From positions 35,776,001 through 35,840,000 of the forward strand of contig NC_086097.1 of the NCBI RefSeq assembly GCF_963921235.1: a stretch of 64,000 nucleotides of DNA. The letters are read 5' to 3'. Numbering within the stretch: position 1 is the first letter of the stretch; each line of letters begins with the position of its first letter. Shown piece by piece: positions 582 to 61,612 of this stretch. Under the pieces are notes generated by a model. That model was not told the DNA's origin. It saw only the letters and a program-made list of their open reading frames with translations, and ran no database searches. Source of the DNA: Mobula hypostoma (lineage: Eukaryota). The position numbers were made by a program, and so were the translations under genes.

Positions 582-725
582 CAGTACACTTCTATTTTAG
601 TGTTACTGCATTTTACTTCTCCTACTCATATTTAATCACTATGAGATTACTTAGGCTCTTGTCACTTCTTATGAATGCTTCAGTGTCCCACACAAATATT
701 GGATGAAAGCAGAGATCTGAAGGTG

Positions 726-930
726 CAGATGCTGGAAATCTTGAGCAACACACACAAAATGCAGGGGGAGCTCAGCAGCTCAGAGACCATAAACAGTTAA
801 CATTTTGTGCTAAGGTCTGTCCTCAGTTACTGAAGAAGGGTCTTGTCCCAAAATGTCAACTGTTTACTTCTCTCTATAGATGCTGCCTGACCTGTTGCGT
901 TCCTTGTGCGTTTTTTTTTTGAGTACGTTT
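726..930. mobile_element. Degenerate fold-back mini-PLE (inverted terminal-repeat pair with hammerhead remnants)
   Basis: Minus-strand copy GCAGATGCTGGAAATC..ACACACAAAATG followed by plus-strand CTGAAGAAGGGTCTTGTCCCAAAATGTCAACTG..ATAGATGCTGCCTGACCTG. Confidence 0.75.
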
Positions 931-3992: not shown

Positions 3993-4021
3993 TTTGGAAG
4001 TGTTTGCTTTGCTGTCCGAGA

Positions 4022-7196: not shown

Positions 7197-7249
7197 CTAA
7201 AATCATACTTGCGTAGGTCAAAAATTTATGAAATTCAACATAGAAGATA

Positions 7250-7620: not shown

Positions 7621-7634
7621 AGTCCTGGCTTGTG

Positions 7635-8792: not shown

Positions 8793-8998
8793 CATCCTGA
8801 CGCAGTGATCTTGACAAAAGGGAAGTGATATCAAACACGTGCCTGGGTCACGGTGGTAGGAGCCAGTAAAAGAAACTGAGCTTGCTCTTTCTACCCTGAC
8901 CCAGGGTGGGTCAAAGGAATGCAGTGGCAAGGCAGGAACGAGAGTAAATAGTGATGGATGGTGAAGGTGGGTATGATTGCAAGAGCTGGAGGTTCCAG

Positions 8999-13181: not shown

Positions 13182-13217
13182 AGTCGACGTTTCGGGCCGA
13201 GACCCTTCGTCAGGACT
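13182..13217 (-). ncRNA. Minimal type-I hammerhead ribozyme, intact core
   Basis: Reverse complement reads AGUC CUGACGA A GGG UCUCGG CCC GAAA CG UC GACU: stem I AGUC/GACU, stem II GGG/CCC, palindromic ACGU helix III, GUC cleavage triplet. Confidence 0.85.
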
Positions 13218-14401
13218 AACTGAAGGAAGAGCTAGTAAGAGATTTGGAAGCTGGAGGGGGAGGGGGAGATCCAAAATGGTAGGAGAAGACAGGAGGGGGA
13301 GGGATGGAGCCAAGAGCTGGACAGGTGATTGGCAAAGGGGATATGAGAGGATCATGGGACAGGAGGTCCGGGGAGAAAGACAAGGGAGGGGGGGAACCCA
13401 GAGGATGGGCAAGGGGTATAGTCAGAGGGACAGAGGGAGAAAAAGGAGAGTGAGAGAAAGAACGTGTGTATAAAAATAAATAACGGATGGGGTATGAGGG
13501 GGAGGTGGGGCATTAGCAGAAGTTAGAGAAGTTGATGTTCATGCCATCAGGTTGGAGGCTACCCAGACGGAATACAAGGTGTGGCCTTCTATATATTGGC
13601 GAGACCCGAAGCAGACTGGGAGACCGCTTTGCTGTCTCTCTGCTTTCCGCAGGGATCGCTCCTTACGCGACTCCCTTGTCCATTCGTCCCCCCCACCCCT
13701 CTCCACTGATCTCCTTCCTGGCACTTATCCTTGTAAGCGGAACAAATGCTACACATGCCCTTACACCTCCTCCCTCACCACCATTCAGAACCCCAGACAA
13801 TCCTTCCAGGTGAGGCGACACTTCACCTGTGAGTCGGCTGGGGTGATATACTGAGTCCAGTGCTCCCGATGTGGCTTTCTATATATTGGCGAGACCTGAC
13901 GCAGACTGGGAGACCGCTTTGCTGAACATCTACGCTCTGTCCGCCAGAGAAAGCAGGATCTCCCAGTGGCCACACATTTTAATTCCACATCCCATTCTGA
14001 CATGTCTATCCACGGCCTCCTCTACTGTAAAGATGAAGCCACACTCAGGTTGGAGGAACAACACCTTATATTCCATCTGGGTAGCCTCCAACCTGATGGC
14101 ATGAACATCGACTTCTCTAACTTCCGCTAATGCCTCACCTCCCCCTTGTACCCCATCTGTTATTTATTTTTATACACACATTCTTTCTCTCAGTCTGCTT
14201 TTTCTCCCTCTGTCCCTCTGACTATACCCCTTGCCCATCCTCTGGGTTCCCCCCCCTTGTCTTTCTCCCCGGACCACCTGTCCCATGATCCTCTCATATC
14301 CCTTTTGCCTATCACCTGTCCAGCTCTTGGCTCCATCCCTCCCCCTCCTGTTGGATCTCCCCCTCCCACTTTCAAATCTCTTACTAACTCTTCCTTCAGT
14401 T

Positions 14402-14437
14402 AGTCCTGACGAAGGGTCTCGGCCTGAAACGTCAACT
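14402..14437 (+). ncRNA. Minimal type-I hammerhead ribozyme (one stem I mismatch)
   Basis: AGTC CTGACGA AGGGTCTCGGCCT GAAA CGTC AACT. Confidence 0.75.
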
Positions 14438-14535
14438 GTACCTCTTCCTAGAGTTGCTGCCTGGCCTGCTGCGTTCACCAGCAACTTTGATGTGTGTTGC
14501 TTGAACTTCCAGCATCTGCAGAATTCCTGTTGTTC

Positions 14536-23254: not shown

Positions 23255-23559
23255 TTGAGCTACATTGAACCTCATCACCATTCCTCTGGGATCTGTGGAA
23301 ATGAAGCCCAGGAGTAAAAATTTCCCACTTCTGGGGAACTAGGTCATCTGCTTTCCACCTGAGCGGCCTGCAGAGTTAGTTCCCATTGAAGTGCTAAAAA
23401 TGAAATCACATCTTGCTGATGTGAATAACAAGGAAAGCAAAAAAAAAAAAAAAATTAGAGGATGAACATGAAACAGGTGAAGGTTTCCACGGTCACGATC
23501 TCAGAGGGACTAATCCCTCTAGTTGCTAGGTAAACAATTGTAATGTAGCTTGTAAATCC

Positions 23560-23935: not shown

Positions 23936-25280
23936 TGGTCAGCTGATTTTTTTTTAATACATAAGAAACATTGCCAACGGAATCATTTGGGAGAGCTTTT
24001 AAGCTAGGATCAGAAAAATAATCTACTCAAAAAGAGTATAAAAATGACCCCGATTTGACCATATAAATATTAATGTTAACAGCTATTGAGGTAAATTTGA
24101 ATAGGGCAATAAATACTCTCTTAAGGATCACCTACATGGTTGACTCGTAGCTGCTCTCTGTAATGCTCCAGTATGTCATACAGTTAAGCAGAATTTAGGA
24201 ATGAACACAGTTGCAAGAGTAGCCAACAACACCATGACCTGTGAACGATTAAATAAATAAGTCTTGAAAGGAGGCTTCTAGGCTGTCAACTTGTATGAGA
24301 AGATGGTCGCTCAAGAAACGCTGTAGGAAAGGGAATTAAATACATTGCCAAAACAAATCATTTTGCTCTCAGAACAAAGGAGGATGAATATCCTTTTACC
24401 ACTTTAATGTTTTAAAAATGACTAAATCCCAAAGAAAGACCTATAGATGTAGCTCTGAGGAACAATGGTGAAGTGAAACTATCTCATTTGCTTTTCACTG
24501 ATCTTTTTCAAGTAAAAAAAAGTGTAGAATGATCTTGAAAATATTTTTACTAAAACATGGAAATATTTCATTGAAAAGATGTTCATGAAATATTCTTGAT
24601 ATGTTAGTCTAAACCTGGTATATATTATATACACACACAAAGCAGAGACCAATTTCCATAGTAATTACAACATGTGTGGCTGCAAGATAAATACAACACA
24701 CTCCTCCTCTATTATCTATTGTAGGATCCAATAGATAAATTGAAAGAATACTACACATAGCCAATTCTTCATAAACGTAACAACAAATAAATGTGGGATA
24801 CAGTTATTTAAAAACACACACTGTAGATTCCCACCAGAAATACCACACTATCCAGTAATAAAGGTAAGCCATCAACAAGCAATCTCACTGGCAAATTTCA
24901 CCAAGGAGTTTCTCAGCACAACACCAATTGGCACCTCTTCCCAACCAGTTGGGTCAGCTAAGCGTGAACCATAGCCACAAATAAAGAACAAATAGCTTTT
25001 CTGAGGAAGACCTCTAAGCTTTTCTCTAGAAGGTACAGAACAGGAGCCTGGGATTCCTGAAATTTTATTAAAACCTTAATAAAAAGGTTTTATGCCTTCT
25101 GTAGGGTGCTGAGTCAGACAGTGAGTCCCAACTCTCTCAATCAGGACACTGATAGTGTGTGGAAAAAAAGAATACTTCACATTGGCAGGAAAAATGACAC
25201 AACAGCACAAGCTTTCTATTACCACAAACTTAAAACAACACTAACCTGTCACACTACACAGCCCAGAAGTAATTAAAACA

Positions 25281-25427
25281 GAAATCTCCCAGATCTGATG
25301 AAGGGTCTCGGGCGAGCATGACGACTGTTTAGTCCTTTCCATAGATGCTGCCTGACCTGCTAAGCTCCTCCAGCATTTTGTATCTGTTACTCTGAATTTC
25401 CAACTTATGCAGAATCTCCTGTGTTTA
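25281..25427 (+). mobile_element. Solo mini-PLE terminal repeat with decayed hammerhead
   Basis: CTGATGAAGGGTCTCGG at 25295; TSD TAAYTAAAACA at 25270-25280 and 25428-25438. Confidence 0.8.
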
Positions 25428-26144
25428 TAACTAAAACACCAACAGCCTTGCACAATCTTAAACCAATTTCCTCCATTCTAGAATGCACATGACTATTCAC
25501 TTGCCACCCCTCATTATGGATCTATAAATGGTAGGTTGTGTCTAATGAGCCTAATTAGATTACCCAAGGAGGTAAGTAAAACGAGTAAGCTTTATATTTC
25601 ACATGGGAATTTAATTGCTAATATGCATATCACTGAAGTCAGCTATTGACCTTGACAAGAGTCCAGCTTTTTCAGAGAGCATAGAGCCAGTACCAGTGCC
25701 TGAGTTCCAACTATTAATGTTTAGGAGAATGTCAGGACACAGGAGGACTTGTGAGAGTGGTGGAAGGCTGTTACATAAAGAAGCCACAGTCAACTGATTA
25801 GTCTCTTTGCTGCAGAGATGGTGAGGGGAAAGAACTGATAAGGGGAGCTCTATTTGAGAGCATATAAAGGTGGAATTATTTCTAGAGGCAGATGCATTGA
25901 TAACCAATGGACAGGGATTAAGGCATTTATCAAAAGAACCAGAGTTTACAATAAGGAAGTCATACAATGAGTTATGGTGATCTCAAACACGACTAAAATG
26001 TCTTAAAAGTCTCAACAGTGTCATTATTAAAGGTTAATGTCAAAAGGCTTAGGAAAAAAGCAAGGGTTTAGACAGAGGGACATCAGAGGGGTGCTTAGGC
26101 AAGTACAGAGTCAGAGCCTCAGCAGTTAAATGCACAGCCACTAA

Positions 26145-27260
26145 TGGCAGACTCTATCAAGTTTCTACAGATGTGCCATGGAGAGCATGCTAACCTGTTG
26201 CATCACCCCTTGGAATGGCGGCTGAAATGCACAGGATCGAAAGAGGCTATAGAGGGTTCAGCTACATCACAGGCACAACCCTATCCACCATTGACAACAT
26301 TTTCGAAGGCAGTGCTTCGAGAAGTCTGCATCCATCATTAAGGACCCTCACCATGCAGGGCAAGCCCCCTTCTCATTACTAACGTCAGAGGAGAGATACG
26401 GGATCCTGAAGACATAGAAACATAGAAAACAGGTGCAGGAGTAGGCCATTCAGCCCTTCGAGCCTGCACTGCCATTCAGTACGATCATGGCTGATCATCC
26501 AACTCAGAACCCTGTACCAGCCTTCTCTCCAAACCCCCTGATCCCTTTAGCCACAAGGGCCATATCTAACTCCCTCTTAAATATAGCCAATGAACTGGCC
26601 TCAACTGTTTCCTGTGGCACAGAATTCCACAGATTCACCACTCTCTGTGTGAAGAAGTTTTTCCTAATCTCGGTCCTAAAAGGCTTCCCCTTTATCCTCA
26701 AACTGTGACCCCTCGTTCTGGACTTGCCCAACATCGGGAACAATCTTCCTGCATCTAGCCTGTCCAATCCCTTTAGGATTTCATATGTTTCAATAAGATC
26801 CCCCCTCAATCTTCTAAATTCCAACGAGTATAAGCCCAGTCGATCCAGTCTTTCATCATATGAAAGTCCTGCCATCCCAGGAATCAATCTGGTGAACCTT
26901 CTTTGTACTCCCTCTATGGCAAAGATGTCTTTCCTCAGATTAGGGGACCAAAGCTGCACACAATACTCCAGGTGTGGTCTCACCAAGGTCTTGTACAACT
27001 GCAGTAGTACTTCCCTGCTCCTGTACTCAAATCCTCTTACTATGAATGCTATGAAAGACACACACTCAAAGCTTTAGGAACAGCTTTACACCTTCACCAT
27101 CGGATTTCTGAACTGCCCATGAACCCATGAACCCAACCTCACTATTTCTCTTTGCATTATTTACTTATTTTATTGCAACTTATGGTAGTATTTTTCATCC
27201 TGCACTGTACTGCTGCCACAAGACAACAAATTTCACAGCATATAATAAATCTGATTCTAA
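26145..27260 (+). mobile_element. Rex1/Babar-like 3' fragment split by a CR1 insertion
   Basis: TCCATCATTAAGGACCCTCACC..CTGAAGACA|CACACTCAA..GATTCT tail. Confidence 0.75.
26415..27054 (-). mobile_element. Young 5'-truncated CR1 with an open ORF2 C-terminus
   Basis: Uninterrupted ORF 26504-27061 (LYKTLVRPHLEYCVQLWSP..TRGHSL..FFTQRVVNLWNS); (TTCTATGT)n tail; AAGACA repeat at 26409-26414 and 27055-27060. Confidence 0.95.
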
Positions 27261-27280
27261 GATATTGAAAATCAAATTAG

Positions 27281-27566
27281 GGGTGTCACGGTAGCATAGT
27301 GGTTAGCACAACACTTCACAGTACCTGCAACCTGGGTTCAATTCCCATCGCTGCCTGTAAGGGGTTTGTATGATCTCCCCATGAACTCATGGGTTTCCTC
27401 CGGGTGCTCCAGTGTCCTCCCACAGTCCAAAGACATACCAGTTGGTAGGTTACTTGATCATTGTAAATTGTGTTTAGGCTAGGATTAAATTAGGGGATTG
27501 CTGGTGTATCGTGGCTCAAAGGGCCGGAAGGGTCTAATCTGCACCGTATCCCAATAAATAAATAAA
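27281..27566 (+). mobile_element. HE1-like V-SINE (tRNA head, V domain, CR1-like tail)
   Basis: A box TAGCATAGTGG, B box GGTTCAATTCC, GGGTTTCCTCCGGGTGCTCC..CCTCCCACAGTCCAAAGAC, (TAAA)n tail. Confidence 0.85.
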
Positions 27567-28034
27567 CCTGATTCTGAATTCAATTAGAGTACAAGTCCTC
27601 TCCAGCATTACAAATGGCCAACTTACAGAAATCCTGCACATACAAATGAGTGTTAGGGAGACTGGCAGGACTGTTGGAGGTGGATTTCCAGGGACTGTGG
27701 AACCTTGCAGCAGGAGTGCATATGCCTGTGTGGCTAGGCATAGCTCAAGTACCATCTATAAATTTGCTGACGATACAACCATTGTTGGTAGAATCTCAGG
27801 AGGTGACGAGAGGGCATACAGGAGTGAGATATGCCAACTAGTGGAATGGTGCCACAGCAACAACCAGGCACTCAACGTCAGTAAGACAAAAGAGCTGATT
27901 GTGGACTTCAGGAAGGGTAAGACGAAGGAACACATACCAATCCTCATAGCGGGATCAGAAGTGGAGAGAGTGAGCAGCTTCAAGTTTCTGGGTGTCAAGA
28001 TCTTTGAGGATCTAACCTGGTCCCAACTTATTGA

Positions 28035-28205
28035 GGCAACATACATCAAAGTTGCTGGTGAACTTCAGTTAGTCCTGACGAAGGGTCTCGGCCTGAAACG
28101 TCGACTGCACCTCTTCCTATAGATGCTGCCTGGCCTGCTGCATTCACCAGCAACTTTGATGTATGTTGCTTGAATTTCCAGCATCTGCAGAATTCCTGTT
28201 GTTTG
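28035..28205 (+). mobile_element. 171-bp fold-back mini-PLE with hammerhead, 13-bp TSD
   Basis: CCCAACTTATTGA at 28022-28034 and 28206-28218; 27-bp perfect inverted repeat 28036-28062 / 28143-28169. Confidence 0.95.
28071..28106 (+). ncRNA. Minimal type-I hammerhead ribozyme, intact core
   Basis: AGTC CTGACGA AGG GTCTCGG CCT GAAA CG TC GACT. Confidence 0.85.
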
Positions 28206-29197
28206 CCCAACTTATTGATGCAGCTATAAAGAAGGCAAGACAGCGGCTATACTTTATTAGGAGTTTGAGGAGATTTGGTATTTCAAGAAATACACTCAAA
28301 AACTTCTATAGCTGTACTGTGGAAAGCATTCTGACAGGCTGCATCACTGTCTGGTATGGCAGGGGGAGGTGGGGGCTACTGCACAGGGCTGAAAGAAACA
28401 GCAGAGAGTTGTAAATTTAGTCGGCTCCATCTTGGATACTAGCCTACAAAGTACCCAGGACATCTTCAAGGAGCGGTGTCTCAGAAAGGCAGCGTCCATT
28501 ATTAAGGACCTCCAGCACCCAGGGCATGCCCTTTTCTCACTGTTACCATCAGGTAGGAGGTACAGAAGCCTGATAATAAACTTGATTCTGATTCTGATTC
28601 TGAGAGAACAAGGCAAATCTGAGTGCCTTGTCTCTGTAGACCCAAACCACGACCTCCAGGCCTTGACAATTGAGAGCAGGCTCAGGCCAAACAGAGTTGG
28701 GATTTCTGTGCAGACTCACTCACTGAGTCAGTGAGGCTGGTCAGTGGCCATTCTTCCTGTGTCTGCTCGCACTCCCATCACAGCTGTTTTTGTGAAACTC
28801 CCTCACACGTTTTTGTTCATTTCTTACTGACAAACAGTTTTGAGTTACCAACAGCTTTCAGAAACAGACTGCTGCTATATGCTGGGGACTGGCTGTAATT
28901 ATCTTTGGAGGATGATAGCATTCAGCATTAAAGGTACATAGATATCTCAGGGCTTTATGTTTGGAGGAGATTACAGACAATTGAGAGAGCAGTGAGAGAT
29001 TTGTAAATGCGAATGGGAATTTTAAAGTGCCTTACCAGATTTAGCACAAATCTACCTTGATTTTCTCTTTGACTTACAATAGAATGATCTTTTCAATGTT
29101 GAATCAATTGTACCCATTAAACAAAATATATTTTACAAGGGTGCAACATTCTGATACCATAGATGTTAAAATTAAATGCAGGTCTCATCTAAAATTA

Positions 29198-29967: not shown

Positions 29968-31445
29968 TGCATAAGATATAGGTGCAGAATAGGCCATTCA
30001 GCCCATCAACTGCTCTGCCATTCAATCATGTCTGATATTTTTCGTCCCCATTCTTCTGCTTTCTCTCCATAATTCTTAACTTTTTCATCTCTTTTTCTCT
30101 TCGATTGTCCATCGAAATCCGATGACGACGTCCACTCCTTTAACGGTGAGATCTTCGATGACTATACAGTCCTACCCTGGACCCACAAGCTCTATTGCAG
30201 GTGGGACATGTATATGTGGTGGTGGTGGCAGTGGTGACAACCATGGCTGCATTTCTCCTGGCTCTCTTCTGCTGTCTTCTGGTTGTTCTTTCCATCTCCA
30301 GAATATGAACCCCATCCCTACACAGCTGTCGCCACGTGGTACGGTCAGCAGCAACATCCTTCAGGTCCTTGGGTCTGATCTTGTACTTCCTTAAAGCATT
30401 CGTCATCCGATCCTTATAGCATTCGGCCTTCCAGCTGAGCGTCAAACAAGATGTAGCTGGCCGTATAACACTCTGCGGGGTAGCCAACATGGGGGCATCC
30501 TTATCATGTGCCCCAGCCACTGCAGCTGACGCTGGGTGATCATAGCATCAATACTTCTGCAGTTGGTCTTTACAAGTATTTCAGTGTGAGGCACCCGCTC
30601 ATGCTGGGTAATTCCCAGGATGCGCTGGAGGCAGCTTATATGGAAGCGCTCCAAGGACTTGATGTGACGGCTGTAGGTTACCTCAACTTCACAGCTATAA
30701 AGGAGGGCGGTGACACAGGCCGCTTGGTATATGGCAACCTTTGTGGAGGGACGAAGGCTCCTGTTCTGAAAGACTCTACGCCGAAGTCTCCCAAAGGCAG
30801 CTGATGCCTGTCTAATGTGGCTCTGGCTGTCGTCGTCAATGCCGCTATCCTCAGAGAGAATGCTCCCCAGATATTTGAAAGATGGCACTGCTGACAGGTT
30901 TTCATCACCAACAGTGAAGGTAGGTAGAGTGGGTGGGACACTGGTACTCCATTGGCAAAGCACTTCTGTCTTGGTGGTATTGACAGCTCCGTAGAAAGTG
31001 GGTCCTGGAGCTGCAGTATGCAGACGACTGTGCTCTTGTGGCCCATACTCCGGAGGATCTTCAGACTGTCCTTGCTGTGGCGGTGAGAGCGTACAGCAGG
31101 ATGGGGCTGACTGTCAATACTACCTGACGTTTTCATAAGTGAGAACTTAAGAACTTCTACCTTAAACACACGCAAAGATTTGTCCTCAACAGCCTTTGTG
31201 TATCAGATTCCACAGATTCACGGCCTTCTGGCTGATGAAATTGCTTCTCATCTCAGTTTTAAAGGGACATCCCTTTATTCTGAGGTTGTGCCCTTGGATC
31301 CTAGATGTTCCTACTAATGGAAACACACTCTCCACACCTACTCTACTCAGGCCTTTCATTACCAGACAGGTTTCAATGAGATCCCCTCTCACCCTTCTGA
31401 ATTCCACCAAGTACTACTCCAATGACATCAAACGGTCCTCATAGT
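29968..31445 (-). mobile_element. CR1 3' fragment split by an RTE insertion
   Basis: CATAAGATATAGG tail; ORF 31186-31410 EFRRVRGDLIET..GHNLRI..VNLWN. Confidence 0.85.
30081..31124 (-). mobile_element. RTE-clade LINE, 5'-truncated with a 5' inversion
   Basis: Minus strand FKYLGS..ASAAFGRL..LLYSCE..QLQWLGH..CPTC..GLYSHRRSH; plus strand 30987-31124 ELQYADDCALVAH. Confidence 0.92.
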
Positions 31446-31519
31446 TAACACTTTCTACTTAGTATCTCATCAATCTATTTTGATTATGTTGATACTAAGT
31501 ACCCAATGAGAAACTTACA

Positions 31520-31830
31520 TCAGAATCAGGTTTCATATCACTAGCATGTATCATGAAATTCATTAACTTTACAGAAGCAGTACAAGGAAATACATGATAA
31601 ATAAATATAGAGAAAACTGAATTACAGTAATATATAACAGGAATGTGTTTATTAAATAGTAAAGTTAGAATAAGTAGCGCAAAAAAACAAAAATTTTAAA
31701 AAGTCATGAGGTAGTATTCATGGGTTCAATGTCCATTTAGAAACCTGATGGCAGAGAGGAAGAAGCTGTTTCCTGAATTGCTGAGAGTGTGCCTTCAGGC
31801 TTCTGTACCTTCTTCCAGATGGTAACAATG
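31520..31830 (-). mobile_element. Rex1/Babar-like 3' tail
   Basis: CAGAATCAGGTTT..GGAAGAAGCTGTTTCCTGAAT..CAGGCTTCTGTACCT. Confidence 0.75.
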
Positions 31831-32289
31831 ATTCTTTAAGCTGCCTGGTTGAGTTCCCAAAATAATTTTCTTAAAATAACAAATTGCCTGGAATATGTTC
31901 CAAGGATGCTTCTCCACACCCACAGTCGAAGCCACAAGTTTTGCATACCAATTTTAGATCATACCTCTGTAAATTTATTTAGTAATCTTCCTGAAGTTGT
32001 CAGCCAATCTCAGTAGAGATTTCTTCCACTGATTCAGCTTTCAAATGAGTTCATTGACATTTACATTAAAGTCAGCTGGATATTCAATCAAGCCCATCAA
32101 AATTAATTTAAAATCCTTTCTCATGCCTTTTCTTTCGCGTGATAAAATGTGTCCAGTCAAAGCTCAAATGGAAAAATGTACTTCACCATGGGCTTATTAA
32201 AGTCAAATATACTGATGTATTTCCTCTTCAGTTAATCAATATTATTAACATTATAATTTGTCATCACTTGCTTATATTAAGAACAACAC

Positions 32290-35055: not shown

Positions 35056-36066
35056 GTGACAGGAGAGGTACCAGAGGATTGGAAGATAGCCAATGTTGTT
35101 CCACTGTTTAAAAAAGGCTCTAAAGATAAACCAGGAAATTATAGGCTGGTGAGTCTGACATCAGTTGTGGGAAGGTTATTGGAGGGTATTCTAAGCAACC
35201 CTATACATAAATATTTGGATGGACTTGGACCAATTAAGGGTAGTCAATATGGCTTTGTGCGTGGTAGGCCATGTCTAACCAAACTTATGGAGTTTTTCAA
35301 GGAAGTTACCAGGAAAGTGGATGAAGGCAAGGCAGTGGATGGATTTTAGCAAGGCATTTGACAAGGTCCCTCATGGGAGGCTGGTCAAGGAGGTTCAGTC
35401 ACTCAGCATTTAAGATGAGGTAGGAAATTGGATTAGACATTGGCTTTGTGGGACAAGCCAGAGAGTGGTAGTAGATGGTTGCCTCTCTGACTGGAGGCCC
35501 ATGTCTCGTGGTGTGCCATAGGGAATGCTGCTGGGTCCGTTGATGTTTGTCATCTGTATCAATGATCTGGATGATAATGTGATTAACTAGATCAGCAAGT
35601 TTGCAGATGACACCAAGATTGGGCCTGTAGTGGAATGCAAGGAAGGCTATCATGGTTGCAGAGGAATTTGCATCAAAAATGGCAGATGGAATTTAATGCA
35701 GACAAGACGAGATTTTGCGCTTCAGTAGGACCAACCAGGATTAGTCTTACACAGTGAATGGTAGGGCCACTAAGGAGGGTGGTAGATCAAAGGGATCTGG
35801 GAATATAGGCAAATAACTCATTGAAATTGGTATCACGGGTACATAGGATCATAAAAAAAAGCTTATAGCACATTGGTCTTCATATATCAATGTATTGAGT
35901 ACAGGAGATGGGATGTTATAATGAAGTTGTATAAGATGTTGGTAAGGCCTAATTTGGAGTATTGTGTGCAGTTTTGGTCACCTCCCTGCAGGAAAGATAT
36001 AAATAAGGTCGAAAGAGTGCAGAGAAAATTTACAAGGTTATTACCGGGTCTAGAGGACCTGAGTGA
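35056..36066 (+). mobile_element. CR1 RT fragment (its 3' end appears to resume at 39856-40182)
   Basis: VPEDWKIANVVPLFKKG..PGNYR.VSLTS, SKAFDKVPH, KFADDTK, LVRPNLEYCVQFWSP. Confidence 0.92.
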
Positions 36067-39000
36067 TAAGACCATAAGACCATAAGACATAGGAACAGAA
36101 TTAGGCCATTCAGTCCATCAAGTCTGCTCTGCCATTTCATCATCGCTGATCTAATTTTCCTTTTAGTCCCAATTTTCTGCCTTCTCCCCATATCCCTTCA
36201 TGCCCTACCCAATCAAAAATCTATCAACTTCTACCTTAAATGTACATAAATATTTAGCCTCCAAAACAGCCTGTGGCAAACAATTCCACAGATTCATGAC
36301 ACTCTGGCTCAAGAAATTCCTCCTCATCTCCATTCCGATAGGATACCCCTCTATTCTGAGGCTGTGTCCTCTGTTCTTAGACTCTCCCACCATATGAAAC
36401 ATCATCTCCACATCCATTCTGTCAAGGCCTTTCACCATTTGATAGGTTTCAATTAGGTCACCCCTCATTCTTCTGAATTCTAGTGAATACAAGCCCAGAG
36501 CCATCAAACGCTCTTCATATGACAAGCCGTTCAATCCTGGAATCATTTTAGTGAATCTCCTTTGAACCCTCTTCAGTTTCAAAACATCCTTTCTAAGATA
36601 AGAGGCCCAGAACTGCTCACAATACTCCAAGTGAGGCCTCACCAGAGCTTTATATCCTTGCTTTTAAATTCTAGTCTTCTTGAAATAATGCTAACATCAC
36701 ATTTGTCTCTTCACCACAGACTCAGCCTAAAAATTAACCTTTAGGGAATCCTGCACAAAGACTCCTGAGTCCCTTTGCATCTCAGGTTTTTGTATCTTCT
36801 CTCCATTTAGAAAATAGTCTACACTTTCATTTCTTTTACCAAAGTGCATGACCATGCACTGCCAATACTGTATTCCATCTGCCATTTTTTTGCCATTCTC
36901 CTAATCTGTCAAAGTCCTTCTGTAGCCTCTCTTCTTCCTCAAAACCACCTGCCCCTCCACTGATCTTCATATCGTCTGCAAACTTTACAACAATGCCATC
37001 AATTCCATCATCCAAATCATTGACGTATCATAAAAGAATTGGTCCCAACGCAGACACCTGTGGAACACCACAGGCACCGGCAGCCAACCAGAAAAGGCTC
37101 CCTTTATTTCCACTCTTTGCTTCCTGCCAATCAACCACTGCTTTAGTCATGCTAGAACCTTTCCTGTAATACCATGGTCTTGTAGCCTTCTGTTGGTTTT
37201 TAAAAGCTTCCCAATCTTCTAACTTCCCACTGACTTTTTCTCTATTATATGCCCTCTATTTGGCTATGATGTTGGCCTTGACTTCTCTTGTTAGCCATGG
37301 TTGTGTCATCTTGCCTTCAGAATACTTCTTCTTTGCGATGTATACATCCTGTGCCTTCTGAATTGTTTCCAGAAACTCCGGCCATTGCTGCTCTGCCGTT
37401 ATCCCTGCCAGTGTTCTTTTCCAATCAATTCTGGCCAACTCCTCCCTCATGCCTCTGTAATTCCCTTTACTCCACTGTAATACTGATACATCTGAATTTA
37501 TCTTCTCCTTCTCAAATTTCTGGATAAGCATGATCATATTGTGATCAACTGCCCTGAAGGATTCTTTTACCTTGAGCTCTCTAATCAATTCTGGTTCATT
37601 GCACAACATCCAATCCAGAATAGCTGATCATCTAGTGGGCTCAACCACAAGGTGCTTTAAAATACCATCTTACAGGCACTCTAGAAATTCCTCCTCTTAG
37701 AGTTCTGCACCAACCTAATTTTCCCAATCTACCTGCATATGAAATCCCCCATGACGATTGTAACATTGCCCTTCTTCTTTCTATTTCCTGTTGTAACTTG
37801 TAGACTACATCCTTGCTACTATTTGTGGGTCTGTATACAACTCCTGTCAGGGTCTTTTTACCCTTGCAGTTCCTTAACTCTTTTCACAATGATTCAATAC
37901 CTTCCAACCCTATGTCACCTCCTTCTAATGATCTGATTTCATTTTTTTTTTACCAACTGAGCAATGCCACTCCTCTGCCTTCCTGCCTGTCCTTTCAATA
38001 CAATATGTACCCTTGGACATTAAATTTCCAGCTATAATCTTCTTTTGGTCATGATTCAGTGATGCTAACAACATCATTCCCATCTATCTGCAACTGTGCT
38101 ACAAGTTCATCTACCTTATCCTGTATACTGCACACATTCAAATATAACACCTTCAGTCCTGTTTTCATCCTTTTTGATTTTGTCTGCCTTTACGTTGCAG
38201 CTCATCCTGTTGACTGCAATTCTGCCCTATCGTCTGCCTCTCCTCACTACACATTGGCTCTGTTTGTAAACCAGCTACCCTCATCTTCAGATCTATTATC
38301 TTCCGCCTTTCCTACAATATTTTTTGCACTGAAACATATGCTGCTCAGGACACTAGTTGCACCATGCTCAACATTTTGATTCCCAACTTTGTCTGAGGTC
38401 TTATCAACATCTGCCTCCACAACCTCTTCACTAACTGTTCAGGCATTCTGGTTCCCAACCCCCCGCAACTTGAGCTTAAACCCCACAGTGCAGCATTAAC
38501 AAACCCTCCTGCTAGGATATTAGTCCCCCTCCATTTCAGGTGCAAACCACCCCATCTGTACAGGTCCCATCTTCCTGGAAGAGAGCCCAATGATCCAGAA
38601 ATCTGATACCCACCCTCCTACACCAACACCTTAGCTGTGTGTCAAACTGCATAATCTTCCTAGTTCTTGCCTTATTGGCACGTGGCACAACCCTAGAAAT
38701 CCTGCCCTTTAACTTGGCACCTAACTCCCTGAACTTCCCTTGCAGAACCCTGTAACTCATCATACCCATGTCATTGGTACCTGCATGGACCATGACCTCT
38801 GGCTGTTCACCCTCCCACTTAGAAACGCTGAGGACTTGATCCGAGATATCTCGGACCCTGGCACCCGGGAGGCAACATACCATCCGGGAATCTTGTTCTT
38901 GCCCACAGAACCTCCTGTCATTCCCCTAAGTAATGAATCCCCCATCACTACAGCGTGCTTCGTCTGACACCCCCCTGAACTCTGCGCCAGTGACCTGACT

Positions 39001-41441: not shown

Positions 41442-41664
41442 AAAGAGTCTGAAGATGCTGGAAACCTTAAACACACTTACACACACACACTCACAAATCT
41501 ATGGAAGGGAAATAGTTGACATTTCATGGCATTTTTCTAGCTCCTGTGCCCTTCCTTTCTAGTCCTGATGAAGGGTCTCGGTCTGAAACATCGACTGATA
41601 ATTCCTCTTCATAGCTGCTGCCTGACCTGCTGAGTTACTTCAGCACTGCGCATGTGTTGTTCCA
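41442..41664. mobile_element. Fold-back mini-PLE with hammerhead near 41561-41597
   Basis: AGTCCTGATGAAGGGTCTCGGTCTGAAACATCGACT; TSD CCTTACARCTT at 41431-41441 and 41665-41675. Confidence 0.8.
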
Positions 41665-43302: not shown

Positions 43303-43555
43303 TAACATGTTAAATAAGACAAGGCAACTACAATTGCATCTCCAGGTGAAGTCCCTGATCATCAGCTATCTGCTTGGTGGTTAATGTGAAAGCTTCTGTC
43401 CAATACCATTCAGTTTGCCAAAAATAAGCTTACAGGGGCAGTTCCCTCAGTAGCAAATATTAGGATGGGACTCATAGGGTTTCATAGCACTGTAATAAGC
43501 ACAAAAAATTTGTGAAGGTCAAAGGACGAGGTAGTCCACAGATAGAAATATTACA

Positions 43556-43695
43556 AACGTGAGAAAATCTGCAGATGCTGGAAATCCAAGGCAACACACA
43601 CAAGATGCTGGAGAAACTCAGCAGATCAGGTAGCATCTATGGAAATTAATAAACAGTTGACGTTTCAGACCGAGAACCTTCCTCGGGACTTCATT
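43556..43695 (-). mobile_element. 140-bp solo mini-PLE beginning at the hammerhead, 9-bp TSD
   Basis: AATATTACA at 43547-43555 and 43696-43704; hammerhead remnant near 43655-43690. Confidence 0.85.
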
Positions 43696-44210
43696 AATAT
43701 TACATGGCTAAGATCCCACTGAAAAAAAGTTTCAGCATTTGACCATCAGACAGTAAGTGACAGATACCCCACACTATTAATCTTTGAATTGCATTGGTGT
43801 TTAATAAGATCTGACGACCTCACATCATATATACTCTAAAGCCTCTTTCTTAATTGATTGGATATCCCAATTGCCTTTGAAAATAAAATGTTGAAATGGC
43901 AACACTACAGGAAATGCAATGAGTGGATTCCAATTCCACTGTAGAGGAGTGAACCACATCTCCAAAAGACCTTGATTTTGAGAGTAGTGCAGCCACTGCA
44001 ATGAGTTACAGACATTGGTCCTGCAGTGATTAGAATGTGCCCCTTCACCCCAGGAAGTCTGACTGGAGAAGGTTTTTAGTGCTACCATTTTTGCTAAATG
44101 TCTTTACGTACATGGTGCCATGCCTCTTTTTGTAGGATTTCTTCTGGCTCCTCTGGCTCTCTTAAACCACTTGGGATCATGGTGACTGGGATCCAAGTTA
44201 GAATTAATCT

Positions 44211-45416
44211 TCGCAATTCCTCCATCTCTGCCACATCTGCTCTCAGGATGAGGCTTTTCATTCCAGGATGAAGGAGATGTCTTCCTTTTTTAAAGAAAGG
44301 GGCTTCCCTTCCTCCACCATCAACTCTGCTCTCAAATGCATCATATTCATGCACATCTGCTCTCACCCCATCCTCCCGCCACCCCACTAGGGATAGGGTT
44401 CCCCTTGTCCTCACCTACCACCCCACCAGCCTCCGGGTCAAACATATAATTCTCTGTATCTTCTGCCACCTCCAACGGGATCCCACCACCAAGCACATCT
44501 TTCCCTCCCCCCCTCTTTCTGCTTTCCACAGGGATCGCTCCCTACACGACTCCCTTGTCCATTCATCCCCCCCATCCCTTCCCACTGATCTCCCTCCCAG
44601 CACTTATCCTTGTAAGCGGAACAAGTGCTACACATGCCCTTACACTTCCTCCCTCACCACCATTCAGGGCCCCAGACAGTCCTTCCAGGTGAGGCGACAC
44701 TTCAGCTGTGAGTCGGCTGGGGTGATATACTGCATCCGGTGCTCCCGATGTGGCCTTCTATATATTGGCGAGACCCGACGCAGACTAGGAGACCGCTTTG
44801 CTGAACACCTACGCTCTGTCCGCCAGAGAAAGCAGGATCTCCCAGTGGCCACACATTTTAATTCCACGTCCCATTCCCATTCTGATATGTCTATCCACGG
44901 TCTCCTCTACTGTCAAGATGAAGTCACACTCAGGTTGGAGGAACAACACCTTATATTCCATCTGGGTAGCCTCCAACCTGATGGCATGAACACTGACTTC
45001 TCTAACTTCCGTTAATACCCCTCCTCCCCTTCACACCCCATCTATTATTTGTTTATTATTATGTATTTTTTTCCCCTTTCTTTTTCTCTCTCTTTTTTCT
45101 CCCTCTGTCCCTTTCACTATAACTCCTTGCCTGCTCTCCATCTTCCTCTGGTGCTCCTCTCCTCCCATCCCATGATCCTCTCCCTTCTCCAGCCTTGTAT
45201 CCCTTTTGCTAATCAACTGTCCAGCTCTTAGCTCCATCCCTCCTCTTCCTGTCTTCTCCTATCATTTCAGATCTCCCCCCTCCCACTTTCAAATCTCTTA
45301 CTATCTCTTCTTTCAGTTAGTCCTGACAAAGGGTCTCAGCCCGAAACGTCGACTGTACCTCTTCCTATAGATGCTGCCTGACCTGCTGCGTTCACCTGTA
45401 TTTTGTGTGGGTTGCT
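44211..45416 (+). mobile_element. Neptune-type PLE 3' part: RT thumb, Cys linker, open GIY-YIG frame, terminal repeat
   Basis: ORF 44689-45015 GVIYCIRCSRCGLLYIGETRRRLGDRFAEH..RLEEQHLI..L.PDGMN; hammerhead 45319-45354 (core G to A); ATTAATCT at 44203-44210 and 45417-45424. Confidence 0.92.
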
Positions 45417-45936
45417 ATTAATCTGCTTTTGGTTGTTTTATATTGAATTGTTTAACCTTTTCACAATAACAACAAATGAGATATCTCAGTACCTTTATAT
45501 CAAGAGTGTGTTGACATGACAGGCAATTAAAAAATCAACATTCAACAATTATAAAGAATAAGGAATTTTATAAAACATAAAGTTAGAGGTTAAGTTTCAG
45601 ATATGGAATAAAATGTGCATAGAAACAAAAACTAGCATGTATTTACAATGTAAACAACATTGCAAAAAGTGGTTTAAAGTGTTTACAGTGCAGTACAATG
45701 ACTGGGGTGTATGTAGAGAGGGATGGGGGGGGGGGTAACCAGAATAGTTGATCAGATTAACTGCCTCGGGAAAGAAACTTATAAAATGGCATGAAGTTCT
45801 TATTTTAATAGCCCTACAGTGTGTAAACATTCAATAACTTTAAAAGCTGCTATTCTAGGAGATATGATTGTGCATCACTGGGAGCACATAATCATTCCCA
45901 CAAGGGTTCACCAGAAACACATTCTGGGTGATACAC

Positions 45937-46145
45937 ACACAAAATGCTGGAGCAACTTAGCAGGTCCAACAGCAACTATGGAGACGAATAAAGAGCCAAC
46001 TTTTCAGGTCCCGATGAAGGGTCTCAGCCCTAAATATCAATTCTTTATTCCTCTCCATAGATACAGTCTGAGTTCCTCCAAAATTTTCTCTGTGTGTGTA
46101 CTCTGGATTTCCAGCTTCTGTGGAATTTCTTGCATTTATGATTTA
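45937..46145. mobile_element. Fold-back mini-PLE, decayed
   Basis: TSD CTGGGTGWTACAC at 45924-45936 and 46146-46158; CCGATGAAGGGTCTCAGCCC. Confidence 0.75.
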
Positions 46146-47054
46146 CTGGGTGTTACACTAGTATTGACATCATTGGGTTGAGCCACACACTAGAAAAACA
46201 GTAACGGAACTGATGAAAATTTCCTACTAAAGTGTTTATACCCCATTAATAAGTGGTTTTCAATCTCTCAAATCCATGTGCAGAATTGGTTATCATCAGT
46301 TTAATATGATTACTGTTCTTATATATTGTCTTTTCTGGTGTCCCACAACAAAATTTCTCTGCCACTTCCTAGAGGTCCAATTATTTATGATATCTGATTC
46401 AGCATTGTAAATATTATTACATCTGGAAGTGTTCCAAGATAATAGATCAAAACATACAGAAGAAGTGATTTAGTTAGTAAACGGACAGACATAAAAGTCT
46501 TAAATTATAGGGAATGCTGAGTGCACAAATAACCTATGAATTAATCCTCAATGTCTATCTGAGAAATGGGGTCTGAAAGTATTCAATTGTTGGCTCTTGA
46601 AGCCCTCACTGCATCATCAACTTTGTGCAACTAATGTGTTTTCTCTGCTGGATCATTTAGATCAGCAAACTGTTGCAAGCAGGAGAAGCAGTCAATAACT
46701 TCTGCTCACTGCACTTTATATAATCATAAAAAAAAATCAGCTTGAAGAAATGTTTTCCATCTTGCAGCCCATTTTCCCATATTCTCTGCATTAAAGTAGC
46801 TATCACTTGTATACCCATTCATGTTTGGACATAATTTTTTGTTGTATTAGTAGAGAGCAGTGCAATTAGAACTAACTGTCTAAACTGCTGACAGCATCAA
46901 AGTGAGATTGACATGTTCATATCTCTCAAGGCTCCTGAAATAGATTGTGTTCCATCATTAGAGATTCCAAGTTTTAAAACAAAGATTCCATAAGTTCTGT
47001 TAACTCCATTAGAGTCAAAGGTCGGATCACAATATTCAAACCCAACTTTCTTTC

Positions 47055-49047: not shown

Positions 49048-49496
49048 CATGTTGTCCTCTCACATTTCCAGCTCTGATGGTGTCCTTGAATCAAGTCATC
49101 AGCTCACTTCTTCTCCCCATTGATGATTCTTGACATCCTAAGTGCTTCTAGCAGCCTTCATTTTTGTTTCAGATTTCCAACATCTTCAGTTTATTTTACT
49201 CCCATGATTTTAGTTAACCCGTTCATTGTAGGAGGTCTAATTTACAGGCCTAAAGCTGCCAGGTACAATAGCAAGGCCCCTAGACTGGAAGACACTTTAA
49301 TGGGGCAATGAAGCAATGACCCAGTACCCCCCTCGTATCCTGTGACAGCAAGTAAAGCCAATGGCCGAAACTGACAGAGATTATAAATGATTATAAACTC
49401 CCAAAAGCTATTACAACTGAAATAAGTAATATTCTAAAATTACATTTTAAAATAAGAAGAAAGTAAGGTGAAAATACATGAAGATACTTAGCAATA

Positions 49497-57029: not shown

Positions 57030-58062
57030 GTTGTAGACCCAGCATTCAACACCATTGTTCCCTCAGTACTAATCACCAGGCGTCTAAACCTGGGCCTCTG
57101 TACCTCGCTCTGCAACTGGATCCTTGACTTGCAATTGGGAGGCAACAGTCAGTACGGATTAGTAATAACATCTCCTCCTCATTAACAAAGGCACAAAGCA
57201 AGGATGTGTGCTTAGCCCATTTTTCTAATTTCTCTACACTCATGATTGTGTGATTAAGCATACATTTAAATTCACAGATGACACCAGTGCTGTTGGTAAA
57301 ATCGCAGATGACGACAAGGGGGAGTACAGCAGTGAGATAGATCAGCTGGTTGAGTGGTGTTGCAACAGCACCCTTGGGCTCAATGTCAGCAAAGCCAAAG
57401 AATTGACTATGGACTTCAAGAAGAAGAATTTAGGAGAACACGCACCAGTTTTCATTGAGTAATCAATGGTGGAAAGGATAAGCCTCTTCAAGTTCCGGGT
57501 TGTCAACATCTCAGAGGATATGTCATGGGCTCAACACATTGTAACCACAAAGAATTGACTCAACTTCATTCAGAGTAGAGGAGATTTGGTACGTAACTAA
57601 AGACTCTTCCAAATTTCTACAGATGCACGGTGGAGGCCATTCTGACAGGTTGCATCAGAGCCTGACACAGAGGCTCCAATATGTAGGATTCCAAGGGCTT
57701 CTGAGGGTGGAAGACTCAGCCAGCTCCATCAGGGGCACAACCCTCCCCGCTGTCAGGGGCATCGCCAAGAGGCGGCGCCTCAAGAAGGTGGCATCCATCA
57801 TTAAGGACCCTCGCCACCTGGGACCTGCTCTCCACACATTAATATCAAATGGGAGGAGGTACAGGAGCCTGAAGACCCACACACAATGATTCAGAAACAG
57901 CTTCTTCTCTTCTGCTGTTGGATTTCTGAATTGCCGCATTATTCCTTTTTTTGCATTGTTTATTTTGCAACTTATGGTAATTTTTATATCTTTCCACCTT
58001 ACTGTCTCAGCAAAATAAATTTCATGTTATATAGGACCCTGTTAATAAACCTGATTCCAATT
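57030..58062 (+). mobile_element. Rex1/Babar-like RT fragment to 3' tail
   Basis: AFNTIVPS.L, LCNWILD, KFTDDT, LNVSK.KEL..DF, ASIIKDPRH. Confidence 0.85.
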
Positions 58063-58432: not shown

Positions 58433-60291
58433 ACACACAAAATGCTGGAGGAGTTCAGCCTGCCAGGCAGCGTCTATGGAAAAAAAGTACAGTCGACATT
58501 TTGGGCCGAGACCCTTTGGCAGGAGAAAAAAAGGTGAGGAGTAGATTTAAAAGGTGAGGGGAGAGAGAAACACAAGGTGATAGGTGAAACTGGGAGGGGG
58601 AGGGATGAAGTAAAGAGCTGAGAAGTTGATTGGTGAAAGAGATACAGGGCTGAAGGGGGGAGTCTGATACAAGAGGACAGAAGGCCATGGAAGAAAGAAA
58701 AGGTGGGGAGGCGCACCAGAGGGAGGCGATTGGCAGGCAAGGAGATAAGGTGAGAGAGGGAAAAGGGGATGGGGAATGGTTAAGCGGGGGGCCATTACCA
58801 GAAGCTGGAGAAATCGATGTTCATGCCATCAGGTTGAAGGCTAGCCAGAGGGAATATAAGGAGTAGTTCCTCCAATCTGAGTGTGGCCTCACCACAACAG
58901 TAGAGGAGGCTATGGATTGACTTATTGGAATGGGAATGGGAAGTGGAATTAAAATGGGTGGCCACTGGGAGATCCCGCTTTATCTGGTGGATGGAGCGTA
59001 AGTGCTTGTGACGTGGTCTCCCAATTTATGTTGGGTCTCACTGATATACAGGAGGCCACAACTGGAGTACCAGCCCCAGTATGACCCCAACTCAAAGGTG
59101 AAGTGTCACTTCACCTGGAAGGTCTGTTTGGGGCCCTGAATGGTAGTGAGGGAGCAGGTGGAGGTGCAGTTGTAGCATTTGTTCCGCTTGCAAAGATAAG
59201 TGCCAGGAGGGAAGATGTGCTTGGTGGTGGGATCCCGTTGGGGATGGCGTGTTCCAGAGGGTTATGTGCTTCTCATGGAGGCTGGTGGGGTGGTAGGTGA
59301 GGACAGGAGGAACCCTATCCGTGGTAAGGTTGCTGGAGGATGGGGTGAGAACAGACGTGCGTGATATGGAAGAGATGCAGTTGAATGCAGTGTCGATGGT
59401 GGAGGAAGGGAAGCCCCTTTCTTTGAAAAAGGAGGACATCTCCTTCGTTCTGAAATGAAGTCTCATCCTGAGAGCAGATGCGGCAGAAATGGAGGAATTG
59501 AGAGAAGGGAATGGCATTTTTACAAGTAACAGGGTGTGAGGAGGTATATTCCAGGTAACTGTGAGAGTCTGTGGGTTTATAAGACTTCAGTAGATAAGCT
59601 GTCTCCAGAGATAGAGACAGAGAGATCGAGAAAAGTGAGGGAGGTGTCGGAAATGGACCAGATAAATTTGAGGGCAGGGTGTAAGTTGGAGGCAAAGTTG
59701 ATGAAGTCGCTGATCTCCGCATGGATGCAGGAAGTAGTACCAATGCAGTTGTCAATGTCGTGCAGGAAAAGTAGGGGAGTGACACCAGTATAGGCTTGGA
59801 ACATGGACTGTTCTACATAGCCAACATAAAGGCAGGCATAGCTGGGACCCATGTGAGTGCCCATGGCTACACCTTTTGTTTGAAGGAAGTGGGAGGAGCC
59901 AAAGGAGAAATTATCAAGAGTGAGGACACATTCCACTAGATGGAGGAGAGTGGAGGTGGAGGGGAATTGGTTGGGTCTGGTGTCCAGAAAGAAACGGAGA
60001 GCTTTGAGACCTTCCTGGTTGGGGATGGAAATGTATAGGGACTGGACATCCATAGTGAAAATAAGGTGATGGGGGCAGGGAACCTGAAATTATTGAAAAG
60101 ATCCAGAGCGTGTGAAGTTTCACGGATGTAGGTAGGAAGGGAATGAACTCGGGGGGGACAAAACAGAGTCGAGGTATGCAGACATGAGTTCAGTGGGGCA
60201 GGAGGGTCTACCTGGACAAGCGGGTTTGTGGATCTTGGGTAAGGGGTAGAAGTGGGAGGTGCAGGGTGCGGGAACTATGAGGTTGGTGGCA
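58433..60291 (-). mobile_element. Neptune-type PLE with RT core, linker, GIY-YIG and terminal repeat; 15-bp TSD
   Basis: FYPLPKIHKP, MDVQSLYISIP, QTKGVAMGT..GPSYACL, HDIDN (decayed YIDD), YKPTDSHSYL; GTGGAGYTAGGCATT at 58418-58432 and 60292-60306. Confidence 0.93.
59577..60053 (-). pseudogene. PLE reverse transcriptase core with inactivated catalytic motif
   Basis: D..SLY, G.AMG motifs; YIDD read as DIDN. Confidence 0.9.
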
Positions 60292-61135: not shown

Positions 61136-61143
61136 CATGTTAT

Positions 61144-61612
61144 TAGACCATAAAACCATAAGCGACAGGAGCAGAATTAGGCATTTCAGCCCATCGAGTC
61201 TGCTCTGCCATTTCATCATGGATGATCCATTTTTCCTCTCAGCCCCTTTCTCCTTCCTTCTCCTTGGAACATTTCAAGACCTGACTAATCAAGAACCTAT
61301 CAACCTCCACCTTAAATACAACCAATGACCTGGCCTCCACAGCCACCTGTGCAAACGAATTCCACAAATTCTGCACCCTTGGGCTAAAGAAATTCCTCCT
61401 CATCTCCGTTCGAAATGGACGACCCTCTATTCTGAAGCTGTGATCTCTGGTCCACTCTCCCACCATAGGAAACATCCTCTCCACGTCCACTTTACCTGGG
61501 TCTTTCAATGCTCAATAGGTATCAATGAGATCCACCTGTCATTCTTCTAAATTCCAGTGAGTACCGGCCCAGAGCCATCAATCGCATCTCAGACAAATAA
61601 CCCCTTCATTCT
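61144..61612 (-). mobile_element. CR1 3' end
   Basis: ORF 61239-61508 EMRRNFFSPRVQNLWNS; GACCATAA tail. Confidence 0.9.

What the first reader, a model, noticed from the sequence alone, without database searches (positions are those of the whole stretch)
43556..43695. TSD-flanked mini-copies that begin right at the hammerhead
Seen: 43556-43695 (140 bp, TSD AATATTACA) and 25281-25427 (147 bp) start within about 5-15 nt of the ribozyme. The sense arms of fold-back minis at 726, 28035 and 45937 also start there. They retain the core upstream of the predicted cut, so their template was not the 3' cleavage product. Inference: the ribozyme fold acts as an RT stop or template-switch hotspot, or a short dedicated RNA of about 150 nt is the mobile unit.
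Basis: partly seen in the sequence, partly recalled or inferred. Interest (0 to 1): 0.7.

Follow-up and report, generated by a model that had tools for sequence, protein, structure and literature searches.

The report
Penelope fragments ending at their ribozyme
These are short dead copies of a known kind of retrotransposon, and more of them than expected begin just before its ribozyme, which may mark where the element's RNA starts.

Summary
43556-43695 (minus strand) and 25281-25427 are TSD-flanked, 5'-truncated copies of a Penelope-like retrotransposon with a minimal type I hammerhead. The host is probably a ray (closest named protein 77%). In 5 of 17 insertions the longest arm begins 3-14 nt before the ribozyme core; smooth truncation predicts 0.6-0.9 (P 0.008-0.044 after allowing for window choice). 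Fold-back joints in two organisms land at the same place (only top rows shown).

A dedicated 150-nt mobile unit is unlikely: the five minis are polyphyletic (AU p 2e-15) and one is 94% identical to a long copy. A ribozyme fold blocking RT should stop it at the fold's 3' foot, where 0 of 23 arms end. Priming at the tail on uncut RNA is already published (PMC11167929).

My best reading is that RT primes about 140 nt from the RNA's 5' end and runs off. The rival is a splice acceptor at the same nucleotides. The element is ordinary. I did not find the pile-up in print, but the sample is small and the mechanism inferred.

The parts
43556..43695 (-). Solo 5'-truncated Penelope-like copy (hammerhead to tail), older subfamily
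   Evidence: profile positions 1-134, E 3e-39
43547..43555 (.). Target site duplication, 9 nt
   Evidence: chance 13 of 5000
43696..43704 (.). Target site duplication, 9 nt, exact partner
43655..43690 (-). Degenerate minimal type I hammerhead: helix I 43690-43687 with 43658-43655, C3 at 43686 (U4 mutated to C), predicted cut between 43659 and 43658
43691..43695 (-). Five extra nucleotides between TSD and helix I; source unexplained
43556..43589 (-). Tail (about 32 nt beyond the second 3' end); boundary approximate
   Evidence: tail concept from PMC11167929
25281..25427 (+). Second solo mini, starts 14 nt before C3 (25295); TSD 25270-25280 / 25428-25438
724..904 (.). Fold-back insertion; both arms begin at the core (minus arm with tail, plus arm without); no TSD found
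28035..28205 (.). Fold-back insertion, young subfamily: 28-nt minus arm plus sense arm from 28063 (-12) with an intact hammerhead; TSD 28022-28034 / 28206-28218
45937..46145 (.). Fold-back insertion: minus arm ending inside helix II (+15), sense arm from 46008 (-3); TSD 45924-45936 / 46146-46158
13635..14534 (+). Long young copy used as the reference for laying contigs; C3 at 14406
14081..14403 (+). Candidate GT-AG intron ending inside helix I; branch-like TACTAAC at 14382-14388 and a pyrimidine tract before it
   Evidence: joint 14079>14403 in one contig each of two RNA-guess runs; GT..AG reading; sequence
44211..45416 (+). Long copy holding the GIY-YIG endonuclease frame (44272-45015); ties the minis to a Penelope-like element
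   Evidence: (PF01541, E 1.2e-4)
58434..60274 (-). Longest copy, with broken reverse-transcriptase frames; 5' boundary approximate
   Evidence: likeness to RT-bearing relatives read by eye; no Pfam hit for these pieces

Best explanation
The minis are recurrent by-products of an ordinary Penelope-like element, not a separate mobile unit. (1) Inferred from PMC11167929: the element's endonuclease nicks A+T-rich DNA on staggered strands, and RT primes inside the RNA at one of two sites about 96 and 128 nt after the hammerhead core. Shown here: two 3' ends, 9-15-nt TSDs, and exactly one tailed arm in 6 of 6 fold-backs. (2) Shown: RT copies through the uncut ribozyme almost without loss. (3) Shown in this window, hinted genome-wide: a fraction of cDNAs end 3-14 nt before the core. 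(4) Inferred, and the step I commit to: this place is the 5' end of a major RNA, a start site at or just before helix I, so RT runs off the template much as in LTR strong-stop synthesis. The ~140-nt cDNA is then joined to the target or to a second cDNA by short matches. Longer copies come from read-through or tandem RNA. (5) Inferred from a different family: the minis lack the sequence beyond the tail that the anole protein needs on its RNA, so they are probably dead ends.
For: End rate per 100 nt at risk is 0.11 for +68..+28, 0.36 inside the ribozyme, 2.18 at 0..-15 and 0.14-0.42 upstream (23 arms): a step, as run-off predicts. Two of the five minis begin at -4/-3. Direct fold-back joints in DNA contigs land at 14403 (-3) with two different partners in two organisms: 7+2 contigs in X1, 1+3 in X5. 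Of the 15 DNA-supported joint rows shown, 5 have an end at -15..0 (P 0.0004 uniform, 0.008 with doubled weight). The A at -4 sits in an initiator-like YYANWYY in 11 of 12 long copies (motif recalled; background 1.8 per 100 nt; copies share ancestry). A second Penelope-like family in the window has a TATA box 44 nt before its own core, which by the usual 28-31-nt spacing (recalled) puts its start near -15. In the anole element uncut RNA is the main substrate and RNA coverage rises at the pLTR-ORF junction.
Against: No RNA 5' end was measured; only contigs were available. The 28063 arm (-12), the 25281 copy (-14) and one DNA joint (-15) begin upstream of the initiator-like A. This family has no TATA box in the up to 225 nt upstream (0 of 12). 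In D. virilis Penelope the start lies about 121 nt before helix I (46-nt exon plus 75-nt intron; my sum). 12 of 17 insertions pass the site. The largest 5'-side loose-end peak (14402; 496 contigs in X1, 456 in X5) has the older subfamily's upstream sequence as its consensus (agreement 0.4), so much of it is subfamily divergence, not truncation. Only 15 of 293 and 12 of 264 joint rows were shown, and not all DNA joints were counted. One X5 joint (14481>14435) lands at the cut site instead.
Confidence: 0.4

Rival explanations
1. The landmark is a 3' splice site. The ribozyme begins right at a pyrimidine tract plus YAG. RT on the unspliced or half-spliced RNA stalls at factors bound to the tract or at the branch, or a spliced RNA loses homology exactly at the acceptor.
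For: YAG with its A at -4 in 8 of 8 long copies, after a pyrimidine-rich stretch. A joint 14079>14403, equal to a GT..AG intron 14081-14403, is in one contig each of RNA-guess runs X15 and X17 (two organisms) and in no DNA row shown (GT makes up 3.4% of positions). Branch-like TACTAAC lies 16 nt before the AG in the young reference. In D. virilis the intron's end maps to the 5' end of helix I (PMC4209133), and a 5'-UTR intron recurs in Chlamys-3 (PMC8557442).
Against: The joint is flagged 'between: not known', may be one shared locus, and the runs are RNA by guess only. The AG is also part of helix I, and the whole 3' region is pyrimidine-rich. The 28063 arm keeps 8-10 intron-side bases. The finding's extra bases do not match the donor exon's end. 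No long copy in the window lacks the candidate intron. Stalling by splicing factors is conjecture.
Confidence: 0.2
2. One reading: the ribozyme fold, or self-complementarity around its start, stops RT or makes the cDNA end switch template.
For: 3 of the 5 cases are fold-back junctions with short matches between the arms. A hairpin pairs the upstream pyrimidines with the core in the young copy (z -1.73 for that 145-nt piece). Hybrid stability falls from -14.5 to -10.5 kcal/mol per 10 nt at -5..-34. Two arms end at +15 and +20, at helix II. Palindromes at pLTR 5' ends and inverted junctions are reported in rotifer elements (PMC3846280).
Against: No arm of 23 ends at the 3' foot of the fold (+28..+66). 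cDNA self-pairing is as high at +70..+1 as at -15..0. The hybrid is equally weak at +26..+40 (-10.4), where no arm ends. The isolated 44-nt ribozyme folds no better than shuffles (z -0.08).
Confidence: 0.2
3. There is no real peak: a chance cluster in one window, helped by the loss of homology upstream of the ribozyme between subfamilies.
For: Only 5 of 17-19 events; P up to 0.044 once the window is free. Old and young subfamilies are 64-83% alike at -4..+31 but 47-58% at -40..-5, which alone makes alignments stop at -4.
Against: 4 of the 5 events have TSDs or direct arm-to-arm junctions that fix the boundary without alignment to another subfamily. Short fragments are detectable (71 of 72). 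Direct DNA joints at 14403 recur in two organisms.
Confidence: 0.15
4. One reading: a dedicated ~150-nt RNA, SINE-like or retrozyme-like, is the mobile unit.
For: Similar lengths (140, 147 and 143 nt for three tailed arms). Penelope-derived retrozyme monomers exist in vertebrates, including one chondrichthyan (bioRxiv 10.64898/2026.07.22.740005).
Against: Minis are polyphyletic and nest among long copies. They share no 5' end. No head-to-tail array of them is seen in the window. Their ends are not at the cut site, as a retrozyme monomer's would be.
Confidence: 0.05

Closest known systems
Poseidon element of Anolis carolinensis (PAc; PMC11167929)
   Same: C-terminal GIY-YIG, hammerhead near the 3' end of genomic copies, two 3' ends 30-40 nt apart (tail), A+T-rich targets, copies that keep the uncut ribozyme.
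   Different: In PAc the ORF starts in the core's AUG; here the young subfamily has ACG there, and the old one's AUG frame stops early in the four copies with an AUG-type frame read. The parts I read report 3' ends of genomic copies, not a pile-up of 5' ends.
Minimal type I hammerheads of metazoan Penelope-like elements (PMC4209133)
   Same: 4-bp helix I, unpaired base before helix II, G-C closing pair, no stable helix III, mostly single scattered motifs from truncated copies.
   Different: Helix II is about 4-5 bp here against 7-8 bp in the Schistosoma motifs. Cleavage was not tested here, and the finding's own core is mutated.
Solo and inverted pLTRs of Adineta vaga Penelope (PMC3846280)
   Same: Short pLTR copies, inverted arms, optional tail on one arm, TSDs of 8-10 bp, palindromes at junctions.
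   Different: There the solo pLTRs had no TSDs and were put down to deletion; here solo copies carry TSDs and are primary insertions. pLTRs there are 181-218 bp with TATA and Inr-like motifs.
Non-LTR retrozymes (PMC7229834; bioRxiv 10.64898/2026.07.22.740005)
   Same: Short non-coding units with a type I hammerhead, related to pLTRs, with dispersed monomers.
   Different: Retrozymes are tandem arrays processed cut-to-cut into circles. These copies are single, are bounded by neither cut site, and derive repeatedly from coding elements.

Membership tests
Endonuclease-bearing Penelope-like element | [quoted passage not shown] | tested here: met
   PF01541 in 44272-45012 (E 1.2e-4, score at the cut-off); the same copy runs on into the hammerhead module
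Endonuclease-bearing Penelope-like element | Reverse transcriptase in the same ORF | tested here: inconclusive
   Only broken frames at 59092-60274, no Pfam hit; three relatives of the endonuclease part carry PF00078. No full-length copy in the window
Endonuclease-bearing Penelope-like element | Optional 30-40-nt tail; direct or inverted 5'-truncated arms | tested here: met
   Two 3' ends about 32 nt apart; 6 fold-backs, each with one tailed arm
Endonuclease-bearing Penelope-like element | Partial tandem (pLTR-ORF-pLTR) of an active copy | not testable with these tools
   No genome held; no such copy in the window
Penelope/Poseidon clade | RT phylogeny groups it with Poseidon | not tested
   No tree against named references was built; the label rests on anatomy only
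Minimal type I hammerhead | CUGANGA, GAAA and UH with helices I and II | tested here: met
   3 intact motifs in the window against 0.03 per shuffle; 84% of cells paired, against 15-46% when slid. The finding's own copy fails the core (U4 to C)
Minimal type I hammerhead | Covariation of the helices | tested here: inconclusive
   No excess over shuffles (270 of 500 as high); these are decayed copies
Minimal type I hammerhead | Self-cleavage | not testable with these tools
   Needs an in vitro assay
Non-LTR retrozyme | Head-to-tail tandem units, each with a hammerhead | tested here: not met
   Self-comparison shows single or inverted copies only; window only
SINE-like dedicated unit | Copies descend from one short master and share its ends | tested here: not met
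   Single clade rejected, AU p 1.8e-15; 5' ends differ

The most novel reading that the evidence does not exclude
In Penelope-like elements the RNA's start, an intron's acceptor and the hammerhead's first helix are one landmark. RT primed at the tail makes a ~140-nt 'strong-stop' cDNA that must jump to a second template to build a full element. The TSD-flanked minis are captured strong-stop intermediates, and the ray genome holds a very large fossil record of that step.
Probability: 0.25. Interest if true: 0.7.

Novelty: new member of a known kind. Interest (0 to 1): 0.38.

Why it matters
How Penelope-like elements build their tandem and inverted forms, and what their hammerhead is for, are open questions (stated in PMC8557442, and PMC11167929). 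Published work that I read fixes the 3' ends of copies. A fixed 5' end would supply the other boundary of the first cDNA and say whether RT starts near the RNA's 5' end. The family is very abundant in these animals (202,279 contigs of run X1 and 128,048 of X5 lay on 711 nt), so one genome and one CAGE library can settle it. If the peak vanishes genome-wide, these are ordinary truncated copies.

Tried and rejected
Genome-wide histogram: not possible, no genome is held. Pattern scans found 0 loci in metagenome contigs, viral contigs and prokaryote genomes. Rfam: 0 matches. Earlier findings: none. No RNA holder listed on record; X15 and X17 are RNA by guess.

Contig depth on the young copy doubles at the ribozyme (X1 3.7 to 8.2 million, X5 2.5 to 5.6 million), and the RNA/DNA ratio dips between stop codon and ribozyme (0.03 against 0.10-0.15). 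I do not use either as evidence: contig depth cannot rank parts of a stretch, and older subfamilies map only to the conserved module. The loose-end peak at 14402 was set aside for the same reason. A second RNA-guess joint (14105>14402) has no splice signals.

Full-length ORF: a longer-length search and a profile-free scan gave full-length relatives only at about 47% identity or less to the stingray protein; translated module frames matched no N-terminus among 163 proteins, so what follows the tail is unknown. cDNA snap-back and weak RNA:DNA hybrid are not specific to the peak. The 5 extra bases of the finding resemble several places (core, ORF end, an inverted piece); all are after-the-fact matches and none is claimed. 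Dropped before counting: 6 profile hits with E above 0.1, and two weak remnants, counted only in the 19-event version. In the tree the 46132 row was cut 5 nt too far upstream and three long arms (21184, 54491, the 724 minus arm) were left out.

Full report
What it is. The 140-nt segment matches about 20 places in the window. Longer copies carry a GIY-YIG frame (44272-45015; PF01541) whose closest named relatives come from a stingray (77%) and sharks (54-62%). So this is a Penelope-like retrotransposon in a cartilaginous fish, probably a ray. The sense strand of 43556-43695 is the minus strand. Near its start lies a minimal type I hammerhead: helix I, CUGANGA, a short helix II, GAAA, and a predicted cut after +27 (C3 = 0). 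Three copies keep the motif intact, against 0.03 per shuffle; 84% of cells pair. The finding's own core is mutated. Rfam did not detect the motif.

The observation. Both solo copies have real TSDs. A profile of the module gave 30 hits, 24 with E below 0.01. Adding one 28-nt arm and setting aside two weak remnants leaves 23 arms in 17 insertions. Four smooth nulls expect 0.57-0.70 (P 0.0003-0.0006 for that window, 0.008-0.014 for any 16-nt window); with the two remnants, 5 of 19 against 0.64-0.92 (0.013-0.044). End rates per 100 nt are 0.11 below the cut, 0.36 inside the ribozyme, 2.18 at 0..-15 and 0.14-0.42 upstream. Short fragments are not hidden: 71 of 72 planted ones were found.

Beyond the window. 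No genome is held and four collection scans were empty. I laid contigs of four runs on a young copy. Direct fold-back joints fall at 14403 (-3) with two partners, in DNA of two organisms (9 contigs in X1, 4 in X5). Five of the 15 DNA-supported joint rows shown have an end at -15..0 (P 0.0004-0.008). Limits are serious: 15 of 293 and 12 of 264 rows were shown, chosen by support, and not all DNA joints were counted. The largest 5'-side loose-end peak (14402) reads as the older subfamily's upstream sequence, so it is confounded; old and young copies are 64-83% alike at -4..+31 and 47-58% just upstream. One X5 joint lands at the cut site.

What is already known. The anole Poseidon protein nicks both strands of A+T-rich DNA, primes at two sites inside the RNA that bound the tail, and uses uncut RNA (PMC11167929). 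This explains the 3' ends, the retained core and, most simply, why each of the 6 fold-backs here has exactly one tailed arm. Solo, inverted and palindrome-ended pLTRs are described (PMC3846280; PMC8557442). Scattered single hammerheads from truncated copies are described (PMC4209133).

A dedicated short RNA fails: the minis need 5 changes on the tree, one clade is rejected (AU p 1.8e-15), and 28063 is 94% identical to long copies (most branches are weak, the young clade is strong). The fold as a stop fits badly: no arm ends at its 3' foot, and the isolated motif folds like shuffles. A template switch remains possible, since three of five cases are inversions with short junction matches, but neither cDNA self-pairing nor hybrid weakness singles out -15..0.

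How it most likely works. RT primes at the tail, copies about 140 nt of uncut RNA and leaves the template at a fixed landmark. I judge the RNA's 5' end the likeliest landmark (0.4). The rate profile is a step; several ends sit at -4/-3; that A lies in an initiator-like motif in 11 of 12 long copies (motif recalled, low in information, copies related); and a second family in the window has a TATA box 44 nt before its core. Against: some ends lie further upstream, this family has no TATA box, and the fly element starts about 121 nt before helix I. The same bases are a plausible splice acceptor (0.2): YAG at -4 in 8 of 8 long copies, a GT..AG-compatible joint in two RNA-guess runs, and the fly intron ends at helix I. 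But the 28063 arm keeps intron-side bases and no long copy lacks the intron. Fold or switch gets 0.2, chance 0.15, a dedicated unit 0.05.

Novelty. The element and its minis are a new member of a known kind. I found no report of 5' ends piling up at the hammerhead in seven searches; the library lacks most subscription papers, and Repbase and Dfam were not searchable. Papers seen: PMC11167929 parts 1-2 of 4, and a search of its 3 text supplements (no hits; its Figs S1-S2 on copy ends were not visible and may bear on this); PMC4209133 parts 1-2 of 4; the bioRxiv preprint parts 1-3 of 5 (supplements closed); PMC3846280 passages and sections 6 and 11; PMC2377424, PMC8557442 and PMC7229834 passages only.

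Verdict. Real sequence feature, probably a real peak, ordinary element, mechanism open and cheap to test. Interest 0.38.

Noticed in passing
window 3500-4732 (minus): A second Penelope-like family (label by eye; no Pfam hit): frame 4022-4732, an inserted repeat at about 3701-3997, then a CCAAT box (3699), a TATA box (3614), a YAG and a CUGAUGA core (3570). Its promoter layout predicts a start about 15 nt before the core.
   Followed up: partly
window 724-904, 13107-14534, 22445-23261, 28035-28205, 41444-41662, 45937-46145: Six fold-back insertions; in each exactly one arm carries the tail, as two primings from opposite target strands would give.
   Followed up: partly
window 13580-13634: A 55-nt piece of the element's own ORF (also at 13870-13924 and 44749-44803) sits at the junction of two inverted arms, suggesting an extra template jump.
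   Followed up: no
window 22643-22690 and 22435-22444: About 48 nt of non-element sequence between the inverted arms, and several extra A/T bases between TSD and tail.
   Followed up: no
window 25281-25290: The first bases of this mini share a 7-nt match with its own tail end (25283 and 25413); may be a tiny tandem remnant.
   Followed up: no
reference 14105>14402 and 14032/14415: Joints seen only in the two RNA-guess runs, in both organisms; the first has no splice signals. Possibly deleted or inverted copies in shared transcribed loci.
   Followed up: partly
window 45933-46010, 41444-41525, 49096-49189, 18312-18363: Four arms (two weak) whose match begins at +15 to +23, at helix II and just upstream of the cut; a possible second, smaller stop.
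   Followed up: no
window 5855-7206, 7460-10390, 26413-28346, 30442-31831, 36063-37627, 57037-58026, 61137-61611: Many pieces of other LINE-like repeats (self-matches, frames); families not determined, no Pfam hit for the three frames tried.
   Followed up: no
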